From Escherichia coli (GTDB lineage: Bacteria > Pseudomonadota > Gammaproteobacteria > Enterobacterales > Enterobacteriaceae), in the NCBI RefSeq assembly GCF_002854065.1, contig NZ_CP024147.1: DNA of 64,000 nucleotides. One strand, given 5' to 3'. Positions 33,908-39,359 of the stretch are shown one piece after another; position 1 is the first letter of the stretch, and each line of letters starts with the position of its first letter. Below the pieces are notes generated by a model. The model worked only from the letters and a program-made list of their open reading frames with translations. It searched no databases and had not been told where the DNA came from. The position numbers and the translations under genes were made by a program.

Positions 33908-34906
<999 letters not shown>

Positions 34907-35097
34907 TTTCTTGCGTTATTTTCGGCACCTTTTATGTAGCGAAGGTGCCGGAATATATTCTCTTTTGTTACTTATTTGTATACCGTGCACAATATTTTTA
35001 TCCCTCATATTTATAGGGTAAATTACCTGTAAAGTAGTGTCTAATTACCCGCCTCGCAAATTCCAGTTTTCAAATATCTATTTCAGGTCAAAAGATT

Positions 35098-35105
35098 GAA
35101 TTATT
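35098..35105. repeat. Left copy of the 8-bp IS1 target-site duplication (gaattatt)
   Basis: Identical 8-mer immediately flanks both IS1 ends. Confidence 0.8.
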
Positions 35106-35160
35106 GGTGATGCTGCCAACTTACTGATTTAGTGTATGATGGTGTTTTTGAGGTGCTCCA

Positions 35161-35436
35161 GTGGCTTCTGTTTCTATCAGCTGTCCCTCCTGTTCAGCTA
35201 CTGACGGGGTGGTGCGTAACGGCAAAAGCACTGCCGGACATCAGCGCTATCTCTGCTCTCACTGCCGTAAAACATGGCAACTGCAGTTCACTTACACCGC
35301 TTCTCAACCCGGTACGCACCAGAAAATCATTGATATGGCCATGAATGGCGTTGGATGCCGGGCAACCGCCCGCATTATGGGCGTTGGCCTCAACACGATT
35401 TTCCGCCATTTAAAAAACTCAGGCCGCAGTCGGTAA
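35161..35436 (+). CDS. insA: IS1 InsA (91 aa)
   Basis: [43 protein letters not shown]... matches IS1 InsA. Confidence 0.95.
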
Positions 35437-35858
35437 CCTCGCGCATACAGCCGGGCAGTGACGTCATCGTCTGCGCGGAAATGGACGAACAGTGGGGATA
35501 CGTCGGGGCTAAATCGCGCCAGCGCTGGCTGTTTTACGCGTATGACAGGCTCCGGAAGACGGTTGTTGCGCACGTATTCGGTGAACGCACTATGGCGACG
35601 CTGGGGCGTCTTATGAGCCTGCTGTCACCCTTTGACGTGGTGATATGGATGACGGATGGCTGGCCGCTGTATGAATCCCGCCTGAAGGGAAAGCTGCACG
35701 TAATCAGCAAGCGATATACGCAGCGAATTGAGCGGCATAACCTGAATCTGAGGCAGCACCTGGCACGGCTGGGACGGAAGTCGCTGTCGTTCTCAAAATC
35801 GGTGGAGCTGCATGACAAAGTCATCGGGCATTATCTGAACATAAAACACTATCAATAA
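35355..35858 (+). CDS. insB: IS1 InsB frame; transposase InsAB' is made by -1 frameshift at the A-run near 35410-35420
   Basis: ORF matches IS1 InsB; A6C slippery motif ttaaaaaactc present. Confidence 0.9.
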
Positions 35859-35873
35859 GTTGGAGTCATTACC

Positions 35874-35881
35874 GAATTATT
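35874..35881. repeat. Right copy of the 8-bp IS1 target-site duplication (gaattatt)
   Basis: Identical to 35098-35105. Confidence 0.8.
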
Positions 35882-36000
35882 CACTGGAGACGATTCGTAA
35901 ATTCGCTGGATTTTTGACTAAAGTTTCTTTAGGATTTGTCTCATCGTATGATTAATTACACCAATCGTTCAACGTCTTGCTGATAAGTGATGGCGATTAT

Positions 36001-36141
36001 ATGAGGTTAGCAATGCCTTCTGGAAATCAGGAACCCCGCCGCGATCCTGAATTAAAACGTAAAGCCTGGCTGGCGGTTTTTCTTGGTTCTGCACTTTTCT
36101 GGGTGGTTGTCGCACTGCTGATTTGGAAAGTGTGGGGATAA
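36001..36141 (+). CDS. ymiA: Small single-TM protein (46 aa), YmiA-like
   Basis: ORF MRLAMPSGNQEPRRDPELKRKAWLAVFLGSALFWVVVALLIWKVWG (not in the supplied ORF track, below its length cutoff); a possible alternative start at 36013; position fits the remembered K-12 ymiA. Confidence 0.45.
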   Translation: MRLAMPSGNQEPRRDPELKRKAWLAVFLGSALFWVVVALLIWKVWG

Positions 36142-36143
36142 CT

Positions 36144-36311
36144 ATGGTTGGTCAGGAGCAACTGGAGTCGTCACCATTATGCCAGGATAGTGACAATGAA
36201 CCAGAAACGAAACGGGAATGTTCCGTCGTTATTCCAGACGACTGGCAACTAACATCGCAGCAGCAAGCCTTTATAGAACTGTTTGCTGAAGATGATCAGC
36301 CGAAACAATAA
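36144..36311 (+). CDS. yciX: Small acidic protein (55 aa), YciX-like
   Basis: Internal ATG 36144 of ORF 36123..36311 with GGGGA 6 nt upstream; position fits the remembered K-12 yciX. Confidence 0.4.
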   Translation: MVGQEQLESSPLCQDSDNEPETKRECSVVIPDDWQLTSQQQAFIELFAEDDQPKQ

Positions 36312-36683
36312 TTATCATCATTCTTATTACCCATTTTTAATGAATTACAGGGCTTTTAATACACCGCAGCAATAACAGGTTGAGTTATCTCAACACAAAG
36401 TAATAACCGTTAAGGGTGTAGCCTATGATCAACACAAATATGAAATATTGGTCCTGGATGGGCGCGTTTTCTCTGTCGATGCTCTTCTGGGCCGAACTCA
36501 TCTGGATCATTACTCACTGATCCCTGACCCCGTTGCGGCGGGGTTTTCATTTGCTTTGCCACAAGCTTTCTCCTCTTTTATCAATTTGGGTTGTTATCAA
36601 ATCGTTACACGATGTTTGTGTTATCTTTAATATTCACCCTGAAGAGAATCAGGGCTTCGCAACCCTGTCATTAAGGAGGAGCT

Positions 36684-39359
36684 ATGTCGTCAACCCTACG
36701 AGAAGCCAGTAAGGACACGTTGCAGGCCAAAGATAAAACTTACCACTACTACAGCCTGCCGCTTGCTGCCAAATCACTGGGCGATATCACCCGTCTACCC
36801 AAGTCACTCAAAGTTTTGCTCGAAAACCTGCTGCGCTGGCAGGATGGTAACTCGGTTACCGAAGAGGATATCCACGCGCTGGCGGAATGGCTGAAAAATG
36901 CCCATGCTGACCGTGAAATTGCCTACCGCCCGGCAAGGGTGCTGATGCAGGACTTTACCGGCGTACCTGCCGTTGTTGATCTCGCTGCAATGCGCGAAGC
37001 GGTTAAACGCCTCGGCGGCGATACTGCAAAGGTTAACCCGCTCTCACCGGTCGACCTGGTCATTGACCACTCGGTGACCGTCGATCGTTTTGGTGATGAT
37101 GAGGCATTTGAAGAAAACGTACGCCTGGAAATGGAGCGCAACCACGAACGTTATGTGTTCCTGAAATGGGGAAAGCAAGCGTTCAGTCGGTTTAGCGTCG
37201 TGCCGCCAGGCACAGGCATTTGCCATCAGGTTAACCTCGAATATCTCGGCAAAGCAGTGTGGAGCGAATTGCAGGACGGTGAATGGATTGCTTATCCGGA
37301 TACACTCGTTGGTACTGACTCGCACACCACTATGATCAACGGCCTTGGCGTGCTGGGGTGGGGCGTGGGTGGCATCGAAGCAGAAGCCGCAATGTTAGGC
37401 CAGCCGGTTTCCATGCTTATCCCGGACGTAGTGGGCTTTAAACTTACCGGAAAATTACGTGAAGGTATTACCGCCACAGACCTGGTTCTCACTGTTACCC
37501 AAATGCTGCGCAAACATGGCGTGGTGGGGAAATTCGTTGAATTTTATGGTGATGGTCTGGATTCACTACCGTTGGCGGATCGCGCCACCATTGCCAATAT
37601 GTCGCCAGAATATGGTGCCACCTGTGGCTTCTTCCCAATCGATGCTGTAACCCTCGATTACATGCGTTTAAGCGGGCGCAGCGAAGATCAGGTCGAGTTG
37701 GTCGAAAAATATGCCAAAGCGCAGGGCATGTGGCGTAACCCGGGCGATGAACCGATTTTTACCAGTACGTTAGAACTGGATATGAATGACGTTGAAGCGA
37801 GCCTGGCAGGGCCTAAACGCCCACAGGATCGCGTTGCACTGCCCGATGTACCAAAAGCATTTGCCGCCAGTAACGAACTGGAAGTGAATGCCACGCATAA
37901 AGATCGCCAGCCGGTCGATTATGTTATGAACGGACATCAGTATCAGTTACCTGATGGCGCTGTGGTCATTGCTGCGATAACCTCGTGCACCAACACCTCT
38001 AACCCAAGTGTGCTGATGGCCGCAGGCTTGCTGGCGAAAAAAGCCGTAACTCTTGGCCTCAAGCGGCAACCGTGGGTCAAAGCGTCGCTGGCACCGGGTT
38101 CGAAAGTCGTTTCTGATTATCTGGCAAAAGCGAAACTGACACCGTATCTCGACGAACTGGGGTTTAACCTTGTGGGATACGGTTGTACCACCTGTATTGG
38201 TAACTCTGGGCCGCTGCCCGATCCTATCGAAACGGCAATCAAAAAAGGCGATTTAACCGTCGGTGCAGTGCTGTCCGGCAACCGTAACTTTGAAGGCCGT
38301 ATCCATCCGCTGGTTAAAACTAACTGGCTGGCCTCGCCGCCGCTGGTGGTTGCCTATGCGCTGGCGGGAAATATGAATATCAACCTGGCTTCTGAGCCTA
38401 TTGGTCATGATCGTAAAGGCGATCCGGTTTATCTGAAAGATATCTGGCCATCGGCACAAGAAATTGCCCGTGCGGTAGAACAAGTCTCCACAGAAATGTT
38501 CCGCAAAGAGTACGCAGAAGTCTTTGAAGGCACTGCAGAGTGGAAAGAAATTAACGTCGCACGATCCGATACCTACGGATGGCAGGAGGATTCAACCTAT
38601 ATTCGTTTATCGCCTTTCTTTGATGAAATGCAGGCAACACCAGCACCTGTGGAAGATATTCACGGTGCGCGGATCCTCGCAATGCTGGGGGATTCAGTCA
38701 CCACTGACCATATCTCTCCGGCGGGCGGTATTAAGCCCGACAGCCCAGCGGGTCGATACCTACAAGGTCGGGGTGTTGAGCGAAAAGACTTTAACTCCTA
38801 CGGTTCGCGGCGTGGTAACCATGAAGTGATGATGCGCGGCACCTTCGCCAATATTCGCATCCGTAATGAAATGGTGCCTGGCGTTGAAGGGGGGATGACG
38901 CGGCATTTACCTGACAGCGACGTAGTCTCTATTTATGATGCTGCGATGCGCTATAAGCAGGAACAAACGCCGCTGGCGGTGATTGCCGGGAAAGAGTATG
39001 GATCAGGCTCAAGCCGTGACTGGGCGGCAAAAGGTCCGCGTCTGCTTGGAATTCGTGTGGTGATTGCCGAATCGTTTGAACGAATTCACCGTTCGAATTT
39101 AATTGGCATGGGCATCCTGCCGCTGGAATTTCCGCAAGGCGTAACGCGTAAAACGTTAGGGCTAACCGGGGAGGAGAAGATTGATATTGGCGATCTGCAA
39201 AATCTACAACCCGGCGCGACGGTTCCGGTGACGCTTACGCGCGCGGATGGTAGCCAGGAAGTCGTACCCTGCCGTTGTCGTATCGACACCGCGACGGAGT
39301 TGACCTACTACCAGAACGACGGCATTTTGCATTATGTCATTCGTAATATGTTGAAGTAA
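36684..39359 (+). CDS. acnA: Aconitate hydratase A (891 aa)
   Basis: Full ORF; RBS AAGGAGGA; Fe-S cluster Cys ligands; aconitase family. Confidence 0.97.

What the first reader, a model, noticed from the sequence alone, without database searches (positions are those of the whole stretch)
36001..36520. Cluster of very small ORFs between IS1 and acnA
Three short ORFs lie in the 810-bp space upstream of acnA: a 46-aa single-TM protein (36001..36141), a 55-aa acidic protein (36144..36311) and a 31-aa hydrophobic peptide MINTNMKYWSWMGAFSLSMLFWAELIWIITH (36425..36520). The first two fit the remembered K-12 ymiA and yciX; the third is unassigned. Small membrane proteins near promoters are often missed, and the IS1 now sits 127 bp upstream of the first one.
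Basis: partly seen in the sequence, partly recalled or inferred. Interest (0 to 1): 0.3.

Follow-up and report, generated by a model that had tools for sequence, protein, structure and literature searches.

The report
Known small-protein genes ymiA, yciX, ymiC
The three tiny ORFs upstream of acnA are the already annotated E. coli small-protein genes ymiA, yciX and ymiC; published experiments validate ymiA and ymiC, so the finding is real but ordinary, and the "unassigned" 31-aa ORF has been named ymiC since 2018.

Summary
All three ORFs exist exactly where stated, and the 127-bp and 810-bp distances are correct. They are the annotated E. coli genes ymiA (b4522), yciX (b4523) and ymiC (b4741). 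YmiA is identical to K-12, YciX differs at 2 residues and YmiC at 1. The third ORF is not unassigned. It matches NCBIfam NF041484 and Pfam PF23694. It was found by chromosomal epitope tagging in 2018, and a GFP fusion localises to the membrane.

The literature describes a ymiA-yciX-ymiC operon induced by low Mg2+ through PhoQP. My comparison across Enterobacteriaceae shows codon-level purifying selection on all three ORFs. An intrinsic terminator follows ymiC in 8 of 8 loci, with different stem sequences, and lies 4-6 nt after the stop codon in 7 of them.

Side observations:
- The Rfam "sRNA" STnc180 is the ymiC ORF plus this terminator.
- The cysB-acnA interval is a recurrent IS1 target, hit in about 436 of 5,426 complete E. 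coli genomes at 9 or more sites.
- The window's IS1 splits a conserved upstream block from the ymiA core promoter region.
- E. albertii has lost all three genes.

Verdict: already known, low interest. What the proteins do biochemically is still unknown.

The parts
35106..35873 (+). IS1 element (768 bp, insA/insB' with programmed frameshift). The 8-bp target-site duplication GAATTATT lies at 35098-35105 and 35874-35881.
   Evidence: Inverted-repeat ends and the duplication were found and mapped to the K-12 empty site. It is annotated as an IS1B-family transposase in the 100%-identical strain CUWW06.
35071..35105 (+). Conserved upstream block of the ymiA regulatory region (TTCAAATATCTATTTCAGGTCAAAAGATTGAATTATT), now separated from the core promoter by IS1. 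It contains an IHF-like TCAAnnnnTTG.
   Evidence: The block is conserved across 11 Enterobacteriaceae loci. The IHF-like match has 1 mismatch and is not statistically significant.
35882..36000 (+). Conserved sequence blocks just upstream of ymiA, where the core promoter most plausibly lies, retained downstream of IS1. It includes TAGGATTTGTCTCA (35930-35943), which is identical to the reverse complement of the RcsB motif reported at the Salmonella ymiA transcription start.
   Evidence: Conservation is shown. The RcsB motif TGAGACAAATCCTA at the ymiA transcription start in S. Typhimurium comes from PMC7913699. PhoQ-dependent promoter activity upstream of the operon comes from PMC11429745. The exact E. 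coli transcription start was not determined here.
36001..36141 (+). ymiA: a 46-aa protein with a polar N-terminus and one C-terminal hydrophobic helix, anchored in the inner membrane.
   Evidence: Identical to K-12 b4522. NCBIfam NF000536 96.8 bits; Pfam PF22868 125.9 bits. pN/pS 0.32. The start at MRLAMP is supported by inhibitor ribosome profiling. Detected by targeted mass spectrometry at roughly 1,000-3,000 copies per cell. A GFP fusion localises to the membrane.
36144..36311 (+). yciX: a 55-aa acidic soluble protein. Its ATG lies 2 nt after the ymiA stop codon, and the GGGGA inside the last ymiA codons (the W-G codons) can serve as its Shine-Dalgarno sequence.
   Evidence: 53/55 identical to K-12 b4523. 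The C-terminal motif IPxxWxLxxxQxxFI is conserved in 11 orthologues and in 84 clusters at 50% identity, nearly all of them stand-alone proteins of 100 aa or fewer. The stop-start gap is 1-3 nt in 9 of 10 loci counting E. coli, and 8 nt in Mangrovibacter. pN/pS 0.51.
36358..36394 (+). Conserved box AATACACCGCAGCAATA (36358-36374) followed by a small covarying hairpin GTTGAG-TTAT-CTCAAC (36379-36394), in the yciX-ymiC spacer. Function unknown.
   Evidence: The columns are invariant in the 8-species alignment. The hairpin has compensatory changes at 4 of 7 pairs.
   Evidence: 30/31 identical to K-12 b4741. NCBIfam NF041484 68.1 bits (cut-off 42); Pfam PF23694 85.3 bits. The core KYWSW..FS.S..FW is conserved in 8 genera with third-position-biased substitutions, 322/226/470 by codon position. 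SPA-tagged protein was detected. A GFP fusion localises to the membrane.
36352..36554 (+). Match to Rfam RF02079 'STnc180'. It is the ymiC mRNA segment (leader, ORF and terminator), not a separate non-coding gene.
   Evidence: 201.8 bits against a gathering score of 50. The Rfam consensus itself encodes a YmiC orthologue (read). Sittka et al. 2008 saw 500-2000-nt bands and called it a processed mRNA.
36526..36554 (+). Intrinsic terminator (GACCCCGTTGCGGCGGGGTT followed by a T-rich tail) starting 5 nt after the ymiC stop codon.
   Evidence: Detected by the terminator scan. A hairpin with a T tract is present in 8 of 8 orthologous loci with different stem sequences, and lies 4-6 nt after the stop codon in 7 of 8.
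36569..36683 (+). acnA proximal promoter (P2) and 5' UTR. This is a separate, deeply conserved unit that includes the reported PhoP site TGTTTGTGTTATCTTTA (36613-36629). The T at 36634 fits a transcription start 50 nt upstream of the ATG.
   Evidence: Near-invariant block. The PhoP gel-shift site comes from PMC10294627. Initiation with UTP then CTP at an acnA promoter comes from PMC5737558, and T36634-C36635 fits it; the -50 position itself is from memory.

Best explanation
The 810-bp space holds the known transcription unit ymiA-yciX-ymiC of E. coli. It encodes three small proteins.

- YmiA (46 aa) is an inner-membrane protein with a cytoplasmic basic N-terminus and one C-terminal helix.
- YciX (55 aa) is acidic and soluble, with a conserved C-terminal motif. 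It is translationally coupled to ymiA: the gap is 2 nt and its Shine-Dalgarno sequence lies in the last ymiA codons.
- YmiC (31 aa) is a single-helix membrane protein.

According to the literature, transcription starts upstream of ymiA, rises at low Mg2+ in a PhoQ-dependent way, and falls when the Rcs system is active. Transcription ends at an intrinsic terminator 5 nt after the ymiC stop codon. acnA then has its own conserved promoter.

What is shown here: ORF identity, family membership, purifying selection, conserved gene coupling, and a conserved terminator. What comes from papers: translation, membrane localisation, PhoQP dependence, the lag phase caused by YmiA overproduction, and the absence of any deletion phenotype. 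What is inferred: the small membrane proteins act, as other Mg2+-stress small proteins such as MgrB and MgtS do, by binding and modulating larger envelope proteins. Their targets are unknown.

The IS1 in this strain lies upstream of the conserved blocks next to ymiA, where the core promoter most plausibly sits. It therefore probably leaves expression possible, while removing a conserved upstream block from its normal position.
For: - Coordinates and translations.
- RefSeq annotation of all three genes in K-12 and in the 100%-identical strain CUWW06. All three are annotated under every full-length match listed, out of 5,421 genomes that match the region.
- Family matches well above the curated cut-offs for YmiA and YmiC.
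- Differences by codon position are 679/441/1251 (ymiA), 1068/952/1566 (yciX) and 322/226/470 (ymiC). pN/pS is 0.32, 0.51 and 0.41 with synonymous sites near saturation.
- A terminator is present after ymiC in 8 of 8 loci with covarying stems.
- Literature: YmiC by SPA tag (PMC6001520); the ymiA-yciX-ymiC operon, PhoQ dependence, membrane localisation and the YmiA overexpression lag (PMC11429745); the ymiA start codon by inhibitor ribosome profiling (10.1101/511675); YmiA by targeted mass spectrometry (PMC12529367); the RcsB motif at the Salmonella ymiA start (PMC7913699); yciX down 3- to 12-fold on LolCDE inhibition (PMC5105897).
Against: - No biochemical function is known for any of the three proteins. 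Single deletions of ymiA and ymiC had no phenotype at low Mg2+.
- YciX has no curated family, and I found no direct protein-level validation of it in the papers I read.
- No convincing PhoP box lies upstream of ymiA; the best matches have 3 mismatches, which is chance level. PhoP control may therefore be indirect.
- The operon is dispensable: E. albertii lacks all three genes, and Citrobacter, Kluyvera and Mangrovibacter lack ymiC.
- The effect of the IS1 on expression was not measured.
Confidence: 0.9

Rival explanations
1. ymiC acts mainly in cis, as an upstream ORF of acnA. A ribosome reaching the ymiC stop codon, 5 nt before the terminator stem, would cover the 5' arm of the hairpin and suppress termination. 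Translation of ymiC would then set how much transcription from upstream promoters (the ymiA promoter or a distal acnA promoter) reads into acnA.
For: - The spacing between stop codon and hairpin is 4-6 nt in 7 of 8 genera although the stems differ.
- ymiC and the terminator are present or absent together across genera.
- STnc180 probes detect 500-2000-nt RNAs, longer than the roughly 200-nt unit.
- Adams et al. list ymiC-acnA among candidate uORF-regulated pairs.
- acnA is itself linked to PhoP in Salmonella.
- From memory, not verified here: a distal sigma-S-dependent acnA promoter about 400 nt upstream of the ATG, which would place ymiC in a long acnA leader.
Against: - The peptide itself is under purifying selection and has a conserved transmembrane-like core. 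Its GFP fusion goes to the membrane. Both fit a trans-acting protein rather than a mere leader.
- No alternative antiterminator pairing was found: the only conserved structure upstream is a small hairpin, and the fold z-score is -1.8.
- The 3' end that Adams et al. mapped lies at acnA +4, not at the ymiC terminator.
- Terminators close to stop codons are common at the ends of operons.
- The region immediately upstream of ymiC had negligible promoter activity.
Confidence: 0.15
2. The 36352-36554 segment is a non-coding Hfq-associated small RNA (STnc180), as it is filed in Rfam, and the 31-aa ORF inside it is incidental.
For: There is a strong Rfam match, 201.8 bits. The segment was recovered in Hfq co-immunoprecipitation cDNA in Salmonella.
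Against: - Sittka et al. found no discrete small RNA band and judged it a processed mRNA.
- The ORF is kept open, with conserved start, length and stop, and with third-position-biased substitutions in 8 genera.
- The protein has been detected by epitope tag.
- The fold is not significantly more stable than shuffles (z = -1.82).
Confidence: 0.04
3. One or more of the ORFs, most plausibly yciX, is a conserved but untranslated or non-functional reading frame.
For: YciX has no Pfam or NCBIfam model. Its N-terminal half is poorly conserved. I found no direct epitope-tag or mass-spectrometry confirmation in the papers read.
Against: - The frame is open with similar length in 11 loci.
- The C-terminal motif has seven invariant residues.
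- There are 84 clusters of stand-alone homologues.
- Tight coupling to ymiA is conserved.
- A tetracycline-inhibited ribosome-profiling start-site signal at the locus the authors call 'yciX (ymiA)', together with a peptide found there, is discussed in PMC4909307.
- pN/pS is 0.51 with synonymous sites saturated.
Confidence: 0.05

Closest known systems
E. coli K-12 ymiA (b4522), yciX (b4523) and ymiC (b4741)
   Same: The order, spacing and orientation between cysB and acnA are the same. YmiA is 46/46 identical, YciX 53/55 and YmiC 30/31.
   Different: This strain carries an IS1 127 nt upstream of ymiA. It also differs from K-12 at 14 single-nucleotide positions across the 1,001-bp interval, including two in the terminator region, at 36533 and 36546.
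PhoQP-induced small membrane proteins MgrB and MgtS
   Same: They are short single-helix inner-membrane proteins induced at low Mg2+. YmiA overproduction gives a prolonged lag phase, as MgrB and MgtS overproduction do.
   Different: MgrB (feedback inhibition of PhoQ) and MgtS (stabilisation of MgtA) have known partners. None is known for YmiA or YmiC, their deletions have no phenotype, and there is no sequence similarity.
Rfam RF02079 STnc180
   Same: The sequence and the modelled structure match over the full model, positions 1-208.
   Different: Rfam files it as an sRNA gene. Here it is the coding region and terminator of a validated small-protein gene.
Leader-peptide or uORF attenuators (pyrL-pyrBI, mdtU-mdtJI)
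   Same: A short translated ORF lies directly next to a termination signal and upstream of a larger gene.
   Different: The YmiC peptide is conserved as a membrane helix. No alternative RNA structure was found. acnA has its own promoter downstream of the terminator. No regulatory link has been demonstrated.

Membership tests
YmiA family (NCBIfam NF000536, Pfam PF22868) | Profile score above the curated cut-off | tested here: met
   96.8 bits against a cut-off of 30; 125.9 bits against 27.
YmiA family (NCBIfam NF000536, Pfam PF22868) | About 42-46 aa, with a basic KRKAW motif followed by one C-terminal hydrophobic helix ending in WG | tested here: met
   Hydropathy is 2.54 over residues 24-42. 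The motif is conserved in 11 loci.
YmiA family (NCBIfam NF000536, Pfam PF22868) | Translated and located in the membrane | not testable with these tools
   Literature only: inhibitor ribosome profiling, targeted mass spectrometry, GFP fusion at the membrane.
YmiC family (NCBIfam NF041484, Pfam PF23694) | Profile score above the curated cut-off | tested here: met
   68.1 bits against a cut-off of 42; 85.3 bits against 27.
YmiC family (NCBIfam NF041484, Pfam PF23694) | ORF of about 31-33 aa between yciX (or ymiA) and acnA, conserved at the codon level | tested here: met
   Found in 8 genera with the core KYWSW..FS.S..FW. Substitutions by codon position are 322/226/470 and pN/pS is 0.41.
YmiC family (NCBIfam NF041484, Pfam PF23694) | Protein made in vivo | not testable with these tools
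   Literature only: SPA tag in VanOrsdel 2018; low-Mg2+ ribosome profiling and a GFP fusion.
YciX (b4523) orthologue group | Close identity to K-12 YciX, and position directly after ymiA | tested here: met
   53/55 identical. The start codon is 2 nt after the ymiA stop codon.
YciX (b4523) orthologue group | A curated profile family exists and is matched | tested here: not met
   No Pfam or NCBIfam hit at E<=0.01. The family exists only as RefSeq naming and as the 84 clusters found here.
Rfam RF02079 STnc180 (sRNA) | Covariance-model score above the gathering threshold | tested here: met
   201.8 bits against 50.
Rfam RF02079 STnc180 (sRNA) | Non-coding, discrete small transcript | tested here: not met
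   It contains the conserved, experimentally translated ymiC ORF. The original authors saw only 500-2000-nt species.
IS1 | 768-bp element with terminal inverted repeats, insA/insB' and an 8-9-bp target duplication | tested here: met
Leader-peptide transcription attenuator | Ribosome position on the leader ORF can physically overlap the terminator stem | tested here: met
   The stop codon lies 4-6 nt from the hairpin base in 7 of 8 loci. This is geometry only.
Leader-peptide transcription attenuator | Mutually exclusive antiterminator/terminator RNA structures, or regulatory codons in the leader | tested here: not met
   No conserved alternative pairing was found. The peptide is conserved as a hydrophobic helix rather than carrying runs of regulatory codons.
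Leader-peptide transcription attenuator | The downstream gene's expression depends on leader translation | not testable with these tools
   This needs reporter fusions with ymiC start-codon mutants.

The most novel reading that the evidence does not exclude
The ymiC-plus-terminator module is gained and lost as a unit among Enterobacteriaceae, and its stop codon sits 4-6 nt from the terminator stem. It may be a translation-sensitive gate that couples the envelope-stress-regulated ymiA operon (PhoQP up, Rcs down), or a distal acnA promoter, to aconitase A expression. YmiC would then be both a membrane protein and a cis-acting uORF.
Probability: 0.15. Interest if true: 0.45.

Novelty: already known. 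Interest (0 to 1): 0.1.

Why it matters
It matters little as a discovery. All three genes are annotated. Translation of ymiA and ymiC is validated, and the operon has been placed in the low-Mg2+/PhoQP stress response. The remaining value is practical:

- It shows that a sequence-only reader can recover real small-protein genes.
- It shows that the Rfam entry STnc180 is a small-protein mRNA.
- It documents that this intergenic region is a frequent IS1 target, which could perturb regulation of the small-protein operon in about 8% of sequenced E. coli.

The open question is what YmiA, YciX and YmiC actually do.

Tried and rejected
1. PhoP-box search (KGTTTA-N5-KGTTTA, up to 3 mismatches). There were 187 matches in the window against 147 expected. 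Upstream of ymiA only 3-mismatch hits appear, so the search is uninformative. Only the published acnA site (2 mismatches) stands out.
2. Long-range pairing between the conserved ACACC box and the ymiC Shine-Dalgarno sequence, suggested by the Rfam structure line. RNAalifold on 8 species did not support it; only a local 7-bp hairpin is conserved.
3. Stability of the STnc180 segment as an RNA. The z-score is -1.82, which is not compelling.
4. IS1 orientation bias. All nine sites I first found had the same orientation, but this came from searching with one orientation only. A query with inverted IS1 found 37 more genomes. That compares with about 43 same-orientation genomes once the 356 sharing one junction are set aside, so there is no bias.
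5. The Adams et al. 'ymiC-acnA' 3' end as evidence for the ymiC terminator. The mapped end is at K-12 1335835, 4 nt inside acnA, so it does not bear on the terminator.
6. IHF consensus at the IS1 hot spot. There is a 1-mismatch match, but 46 of 200 shuffles did as well. It remains a lead only.
7. PDB sequence search with YciX found nothing.
8. The supplementary tables of the Mg2+ paper (reporter coordinates) and the original acnA promoter paper were not available. The E. coli ymiA transcription start and the distal acnA promoter position are therefore unverified here.

Full report
**Observation.** The window around 34.9-36.7 kb reads cysB (33932-34906), IS1 (35106-35873), three short ORFs, then acnA (from 36684).
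- IS1 is 768 bp and is flanked by an 8-bp duplication, GAATTATT. That leaves 127 nt to the ymiA ATG and 810 nt to the acnA ATG.
- The physico-chemical descriptions hold. YmiA has one strongly hydrophobic C-terminal stretch. YciX has pI 4.05. YmiC is hydrophobic.
- Short ORFs are frequent by chance: one search lists 59 of 20 aa or more in 3 kb. The ORFs alone therefore prove nothing.

**Identity.**
- A megablast of the 817-bp interval matches 5,421 of 5,426 complete E. coli genomes. ymiA, yciX and ymiC are annotated under every full-length match listed.
- In K-12 MG1655 they are b4522, b4523 and b4741. The strain with 100% identity including the IS1 junction is CUWW06.
- YmiA is identical to K-12. 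YciX differs at two residues (H15D, T20P) and YmiC at one (L26I).
- YmiA matches NCBIfam NF000536 and Pfam PF22868. YmiC matches NCBIfam NF041484 ('small membrane protein YmiC') and Pfam PF23694. All four matches are far above the curated cut-offs. YciX has no curated model.

**What is published.**
- YmiC was discovered by chromosomal SPA tagging and listed with exactly this position, between yciX and acnA (VanOrsdel et al. 2018, PMC6001520).
- Inhibitor-based ribosome profiling indicates that ymiA initiates at MRLAMP, which is the 36001 start (Weaver et al., 10.1101/511675).
- YmiA was quantified by targeted mass spectrometry at roughly 1,000-3,000 copies per cell (PMC12529367).
- A study of Mg2+-starvation small proteins (PMC11429745) reports several results. 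ymiA and ymiC are induced at low Mg2+. The region upstream of ymiA, but not the region just upstream of ymiC, has PhoQ-dependent promoter activity, so the authors propose a ymiA-yciX-ymiC operon. GFP fusions of YmiA and YmiC localise to the membrane. Overproducing YmiA prolongs the lag phase. Deleting either gene has no phenotype.
- In Salmonella an RcsB motif, TGAGACAAATCCTA, overlaps the ymiA transcription start (PMC7913699). Its reverse complement is present unchanged at 35930-35943.
- yciX falls 3- to 12-fold when Rcs is triggered by LolCDE inhibition (PMC5105897).

I anchored on AcnA and fetched loci from species-representative genomes.
- The trio, or parts of it, occurs only in Enterobacteriaceae, plus one Erwinia with ymiA/yciX-like ORFs. 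Yersinia, Rahnella, Photorhabdus, Providencia and the others lack it, even though many of them keep cysB next to acnA.
- Substitutions by codon position are 679/441/1251 for ymiA, 1068/952/1566 for yciX and 322/226/470 for ymiC. pN/pS is 0.32, 0.51 and 0.41, with synonymous sites near saturation.
- YmiC keeps a core, KYWSW..FS.S..FW, in eight genera. YciX keeps a C-terminal motif, IPxxWxLxxxQxxFI.
- A full-library profile search found 84 clusters of YciX relatives at 50% identity. Nearly all are stand-alone proteins of 100 aa or fewer.
- The yciX ATG lies 1-3 nt after the ymiA stop codon in nine of ten loci, counting E. coli. This fits translational coupling.
It is not met.

**Anatomy of the unit.**
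- An intrinsic terminator (36526-36545 plus a T-rich tail) begins 5 nt after the ymiC stop codon. All eight ymiC-bearing loci have such a hairpin with different stem sequences. In seven of them it lies 4-6 nt after the stop codon.
- Downstream lies a nearly invariant block that includes the acnA proximal promoter. This block contains the PhoP site reported for Salmonella acnA, at window 36613-36629. T36634-C36635 fits the published UTP-then-CTP initiation at an acnA promoter.
- Genera that lack ymiC (Citrobacter, Kluyvera, Mangrovibacter) also lack a detectable terminator at the corresponding position. ymiC and its terminator therefore behave as one module.
- That module is exactly what Rfam calls the sRNA STnc180 (RF02079, 201.8 bits, 36352-36554). 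The Rfam consensus itself encodes a YmiC orthologue. The discoverers saw only 500-2000-nt RNAs and called it a processed mRNA.
- In the yciX-ymiC spacer there is an invariant box, AATACAC(C)RCAGCAAT, followed by a small covarying hairpin. I cannot explain it.

**Mechanism.** The best-supported reading (confidence 0.9) is that these are three real small proteins made from one stress-regulated transcript that ends before the acnA promoter.
- I infer, by analogy with MgrB and MgtS, that YmiA and YmiC modulate larger envelope proteins. This is inference only, because no partners are known.
- A more interesting rival (0.15) is that ymiC also acts in cis. A terminating ribosome 5 nt from the hairpin should hinder terminator folding, so ymiC translation could gate read-through into acnA.
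- The conserved geometry and the co-occurrence of ymiC with its terminator fit this rival. Adams et al. also list ymiC-acnA as a candidate uORF pair.
- Several points weigh against it. The 3' end that Adams et al. mapped is at acnA +4, not at this terminator. The peptide is conserved as a membrane helix. No antiterminator structure was found. acnA has its own promoter.

**The IS1.**
- The insertion lies upstream of the conserved blocks next to ymiA, where the core promoter most plausibly sits. It separates those blocks from another conserved block (35071-35105). The functional effect is untested.
- The interval is a recurrent IS1 target. 399 genomes carry IS1 there in the window's orientation. 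Of these, 356 share one junction 92 nt upstream of ymiA with duplication GATTTTTG; I did not check whether they are a single lineage. Another 37 genomes carry IS1 in the opposite orientation.
- At least nine distinct sites exist. Three lie within 9 bp of each other, including the window's. One lies between yciX and ymiC, one inside ymiC, and one is accompanied by deletion of ymiA-yciX.
- An apparent orientation bias disappeared once I searched with the inverted element.
- Only CUWW06 shares the window's exact junction.

**Comparison and novelty.** This is the known ymiA-yciX-ymiC locus, so the novelty class is 'already known'. The side observations are the STnc180/ymiC equivalence, the ymiC-terminator module, the IS1 hot region, and the loss of the whole trio in the E. 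albertii type strain. They are minor and do not change the classification.

**Verdict.** Interest is 0.1.

Noticed in passing
window 34907-36520 (cysB-acnA interval); loci L083-L085, L087-L093: This interval is a recurrent IS1 target in E. coli. About 436 of 5,426 complete genomes carry an IS1 here: 399 in the window's orientation, of which 356 share one junction 92 nt upstream of ymiA, and 37 inverted. At least 9 distinct sites exist, three of them within 9 bp at AGATTGAATTATTCACTG. One insertion lies inside ymiC (strain EC261), one between yciX and ymiC (MIN6), and one is accompanied by deletion of ymiA-yciX (MEI008). An IHF-like TCAAnnnnTTG sits next to the three-site cluster, but it is not statistically significant.
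   Followed up: partly
window 36352-36554: The Rfam family RF02079 'STnc180 sRNA' coincides with the ymiC coding region plus its terminator, and the Rfam consensus sequence itself translates to a YmiC orthologue. The Rfam entry therefore describes a small-protein mRNA segment rather than a non-coding RNA gene.
   Followed up: yes
L004 2739-3003 (Escherichia albertii NBRC 107761): E. albertii has only 262 bp between cysB and acnA. ymiA, yciX and ymiC are all deleted (equivalent to window positions of about 35968-36523). A fragment containing the RcsB-box region, the terminator and the acnA promoter is retained.
   Followed up: partly
L003, L005, L074, L079 (Citrobacter, Kluyvera, Mangrovibacter); L010 (Superficieibacter): Gene content is modular. 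Citrobacter, Kluyvera and Mangrovibacter have ymiA-yciX but neither ymiC nor a detectable terminator before acnA. Superficieibacter has ymiA and ymiC but no yciX.
   Followed up: partly
window 36358-36394: An invariant box, AATACACCGCAGCAATA, is followed by a 7-bp hairpin with compensatory changes. It lies about 50 nt upstream of the ymiC start codon, and its function is unexplained. One natural IS1 insertion (strain MIN6) sits inside the box.
   Followed up: partly
window 36637-36688: The acnA 5' UTR has CCCTG / CAGGG / CCCTG segments that could form two mutually exclusive hairpins just upstream of the Shine-Dalgarno sequence, and these are conserved across genera. Adams et al. 2021 mapped a Rho-independent RNA 3' end 4 nt into acnA (K-12 1335835).
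   Followed up: no
window 36613-36629: TGTTTGTGTTATCTTTA is the PhoP-binding site reported by gel shift for the Salmonella Enteritidis acnA promoter. It is present unchanged here and lies in an invariant block across 8 genera. Both the small-protein operon and acnA are therefore linked to PhoP in the literature.
   Followed up: partly
window 35977-36013: Many Enterobacteriaceae have an ATG seven codons upstream of the E. coli ymiA start (MISD.DCMRLAMPSG). E. coli has CTG at that position. Met1 of the annotated 46-aa form is replaced by T, E or I in four genera, while the Met at position 5 is invariant and is preceded by GAGG. Profiling data in the literature nevertheless favour the MRLAMP start in E. 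coli.
   Followed up: partly
protein P0007: One database protein is an in-frame YmiA-YciX fusion (MPSGNQEPRRDPELKRKAW joined to PLCQHSDNETETKRECS...). This implies a deletion variant somewhere that removes the YmiA transmembrane helix.
   Followed up: no
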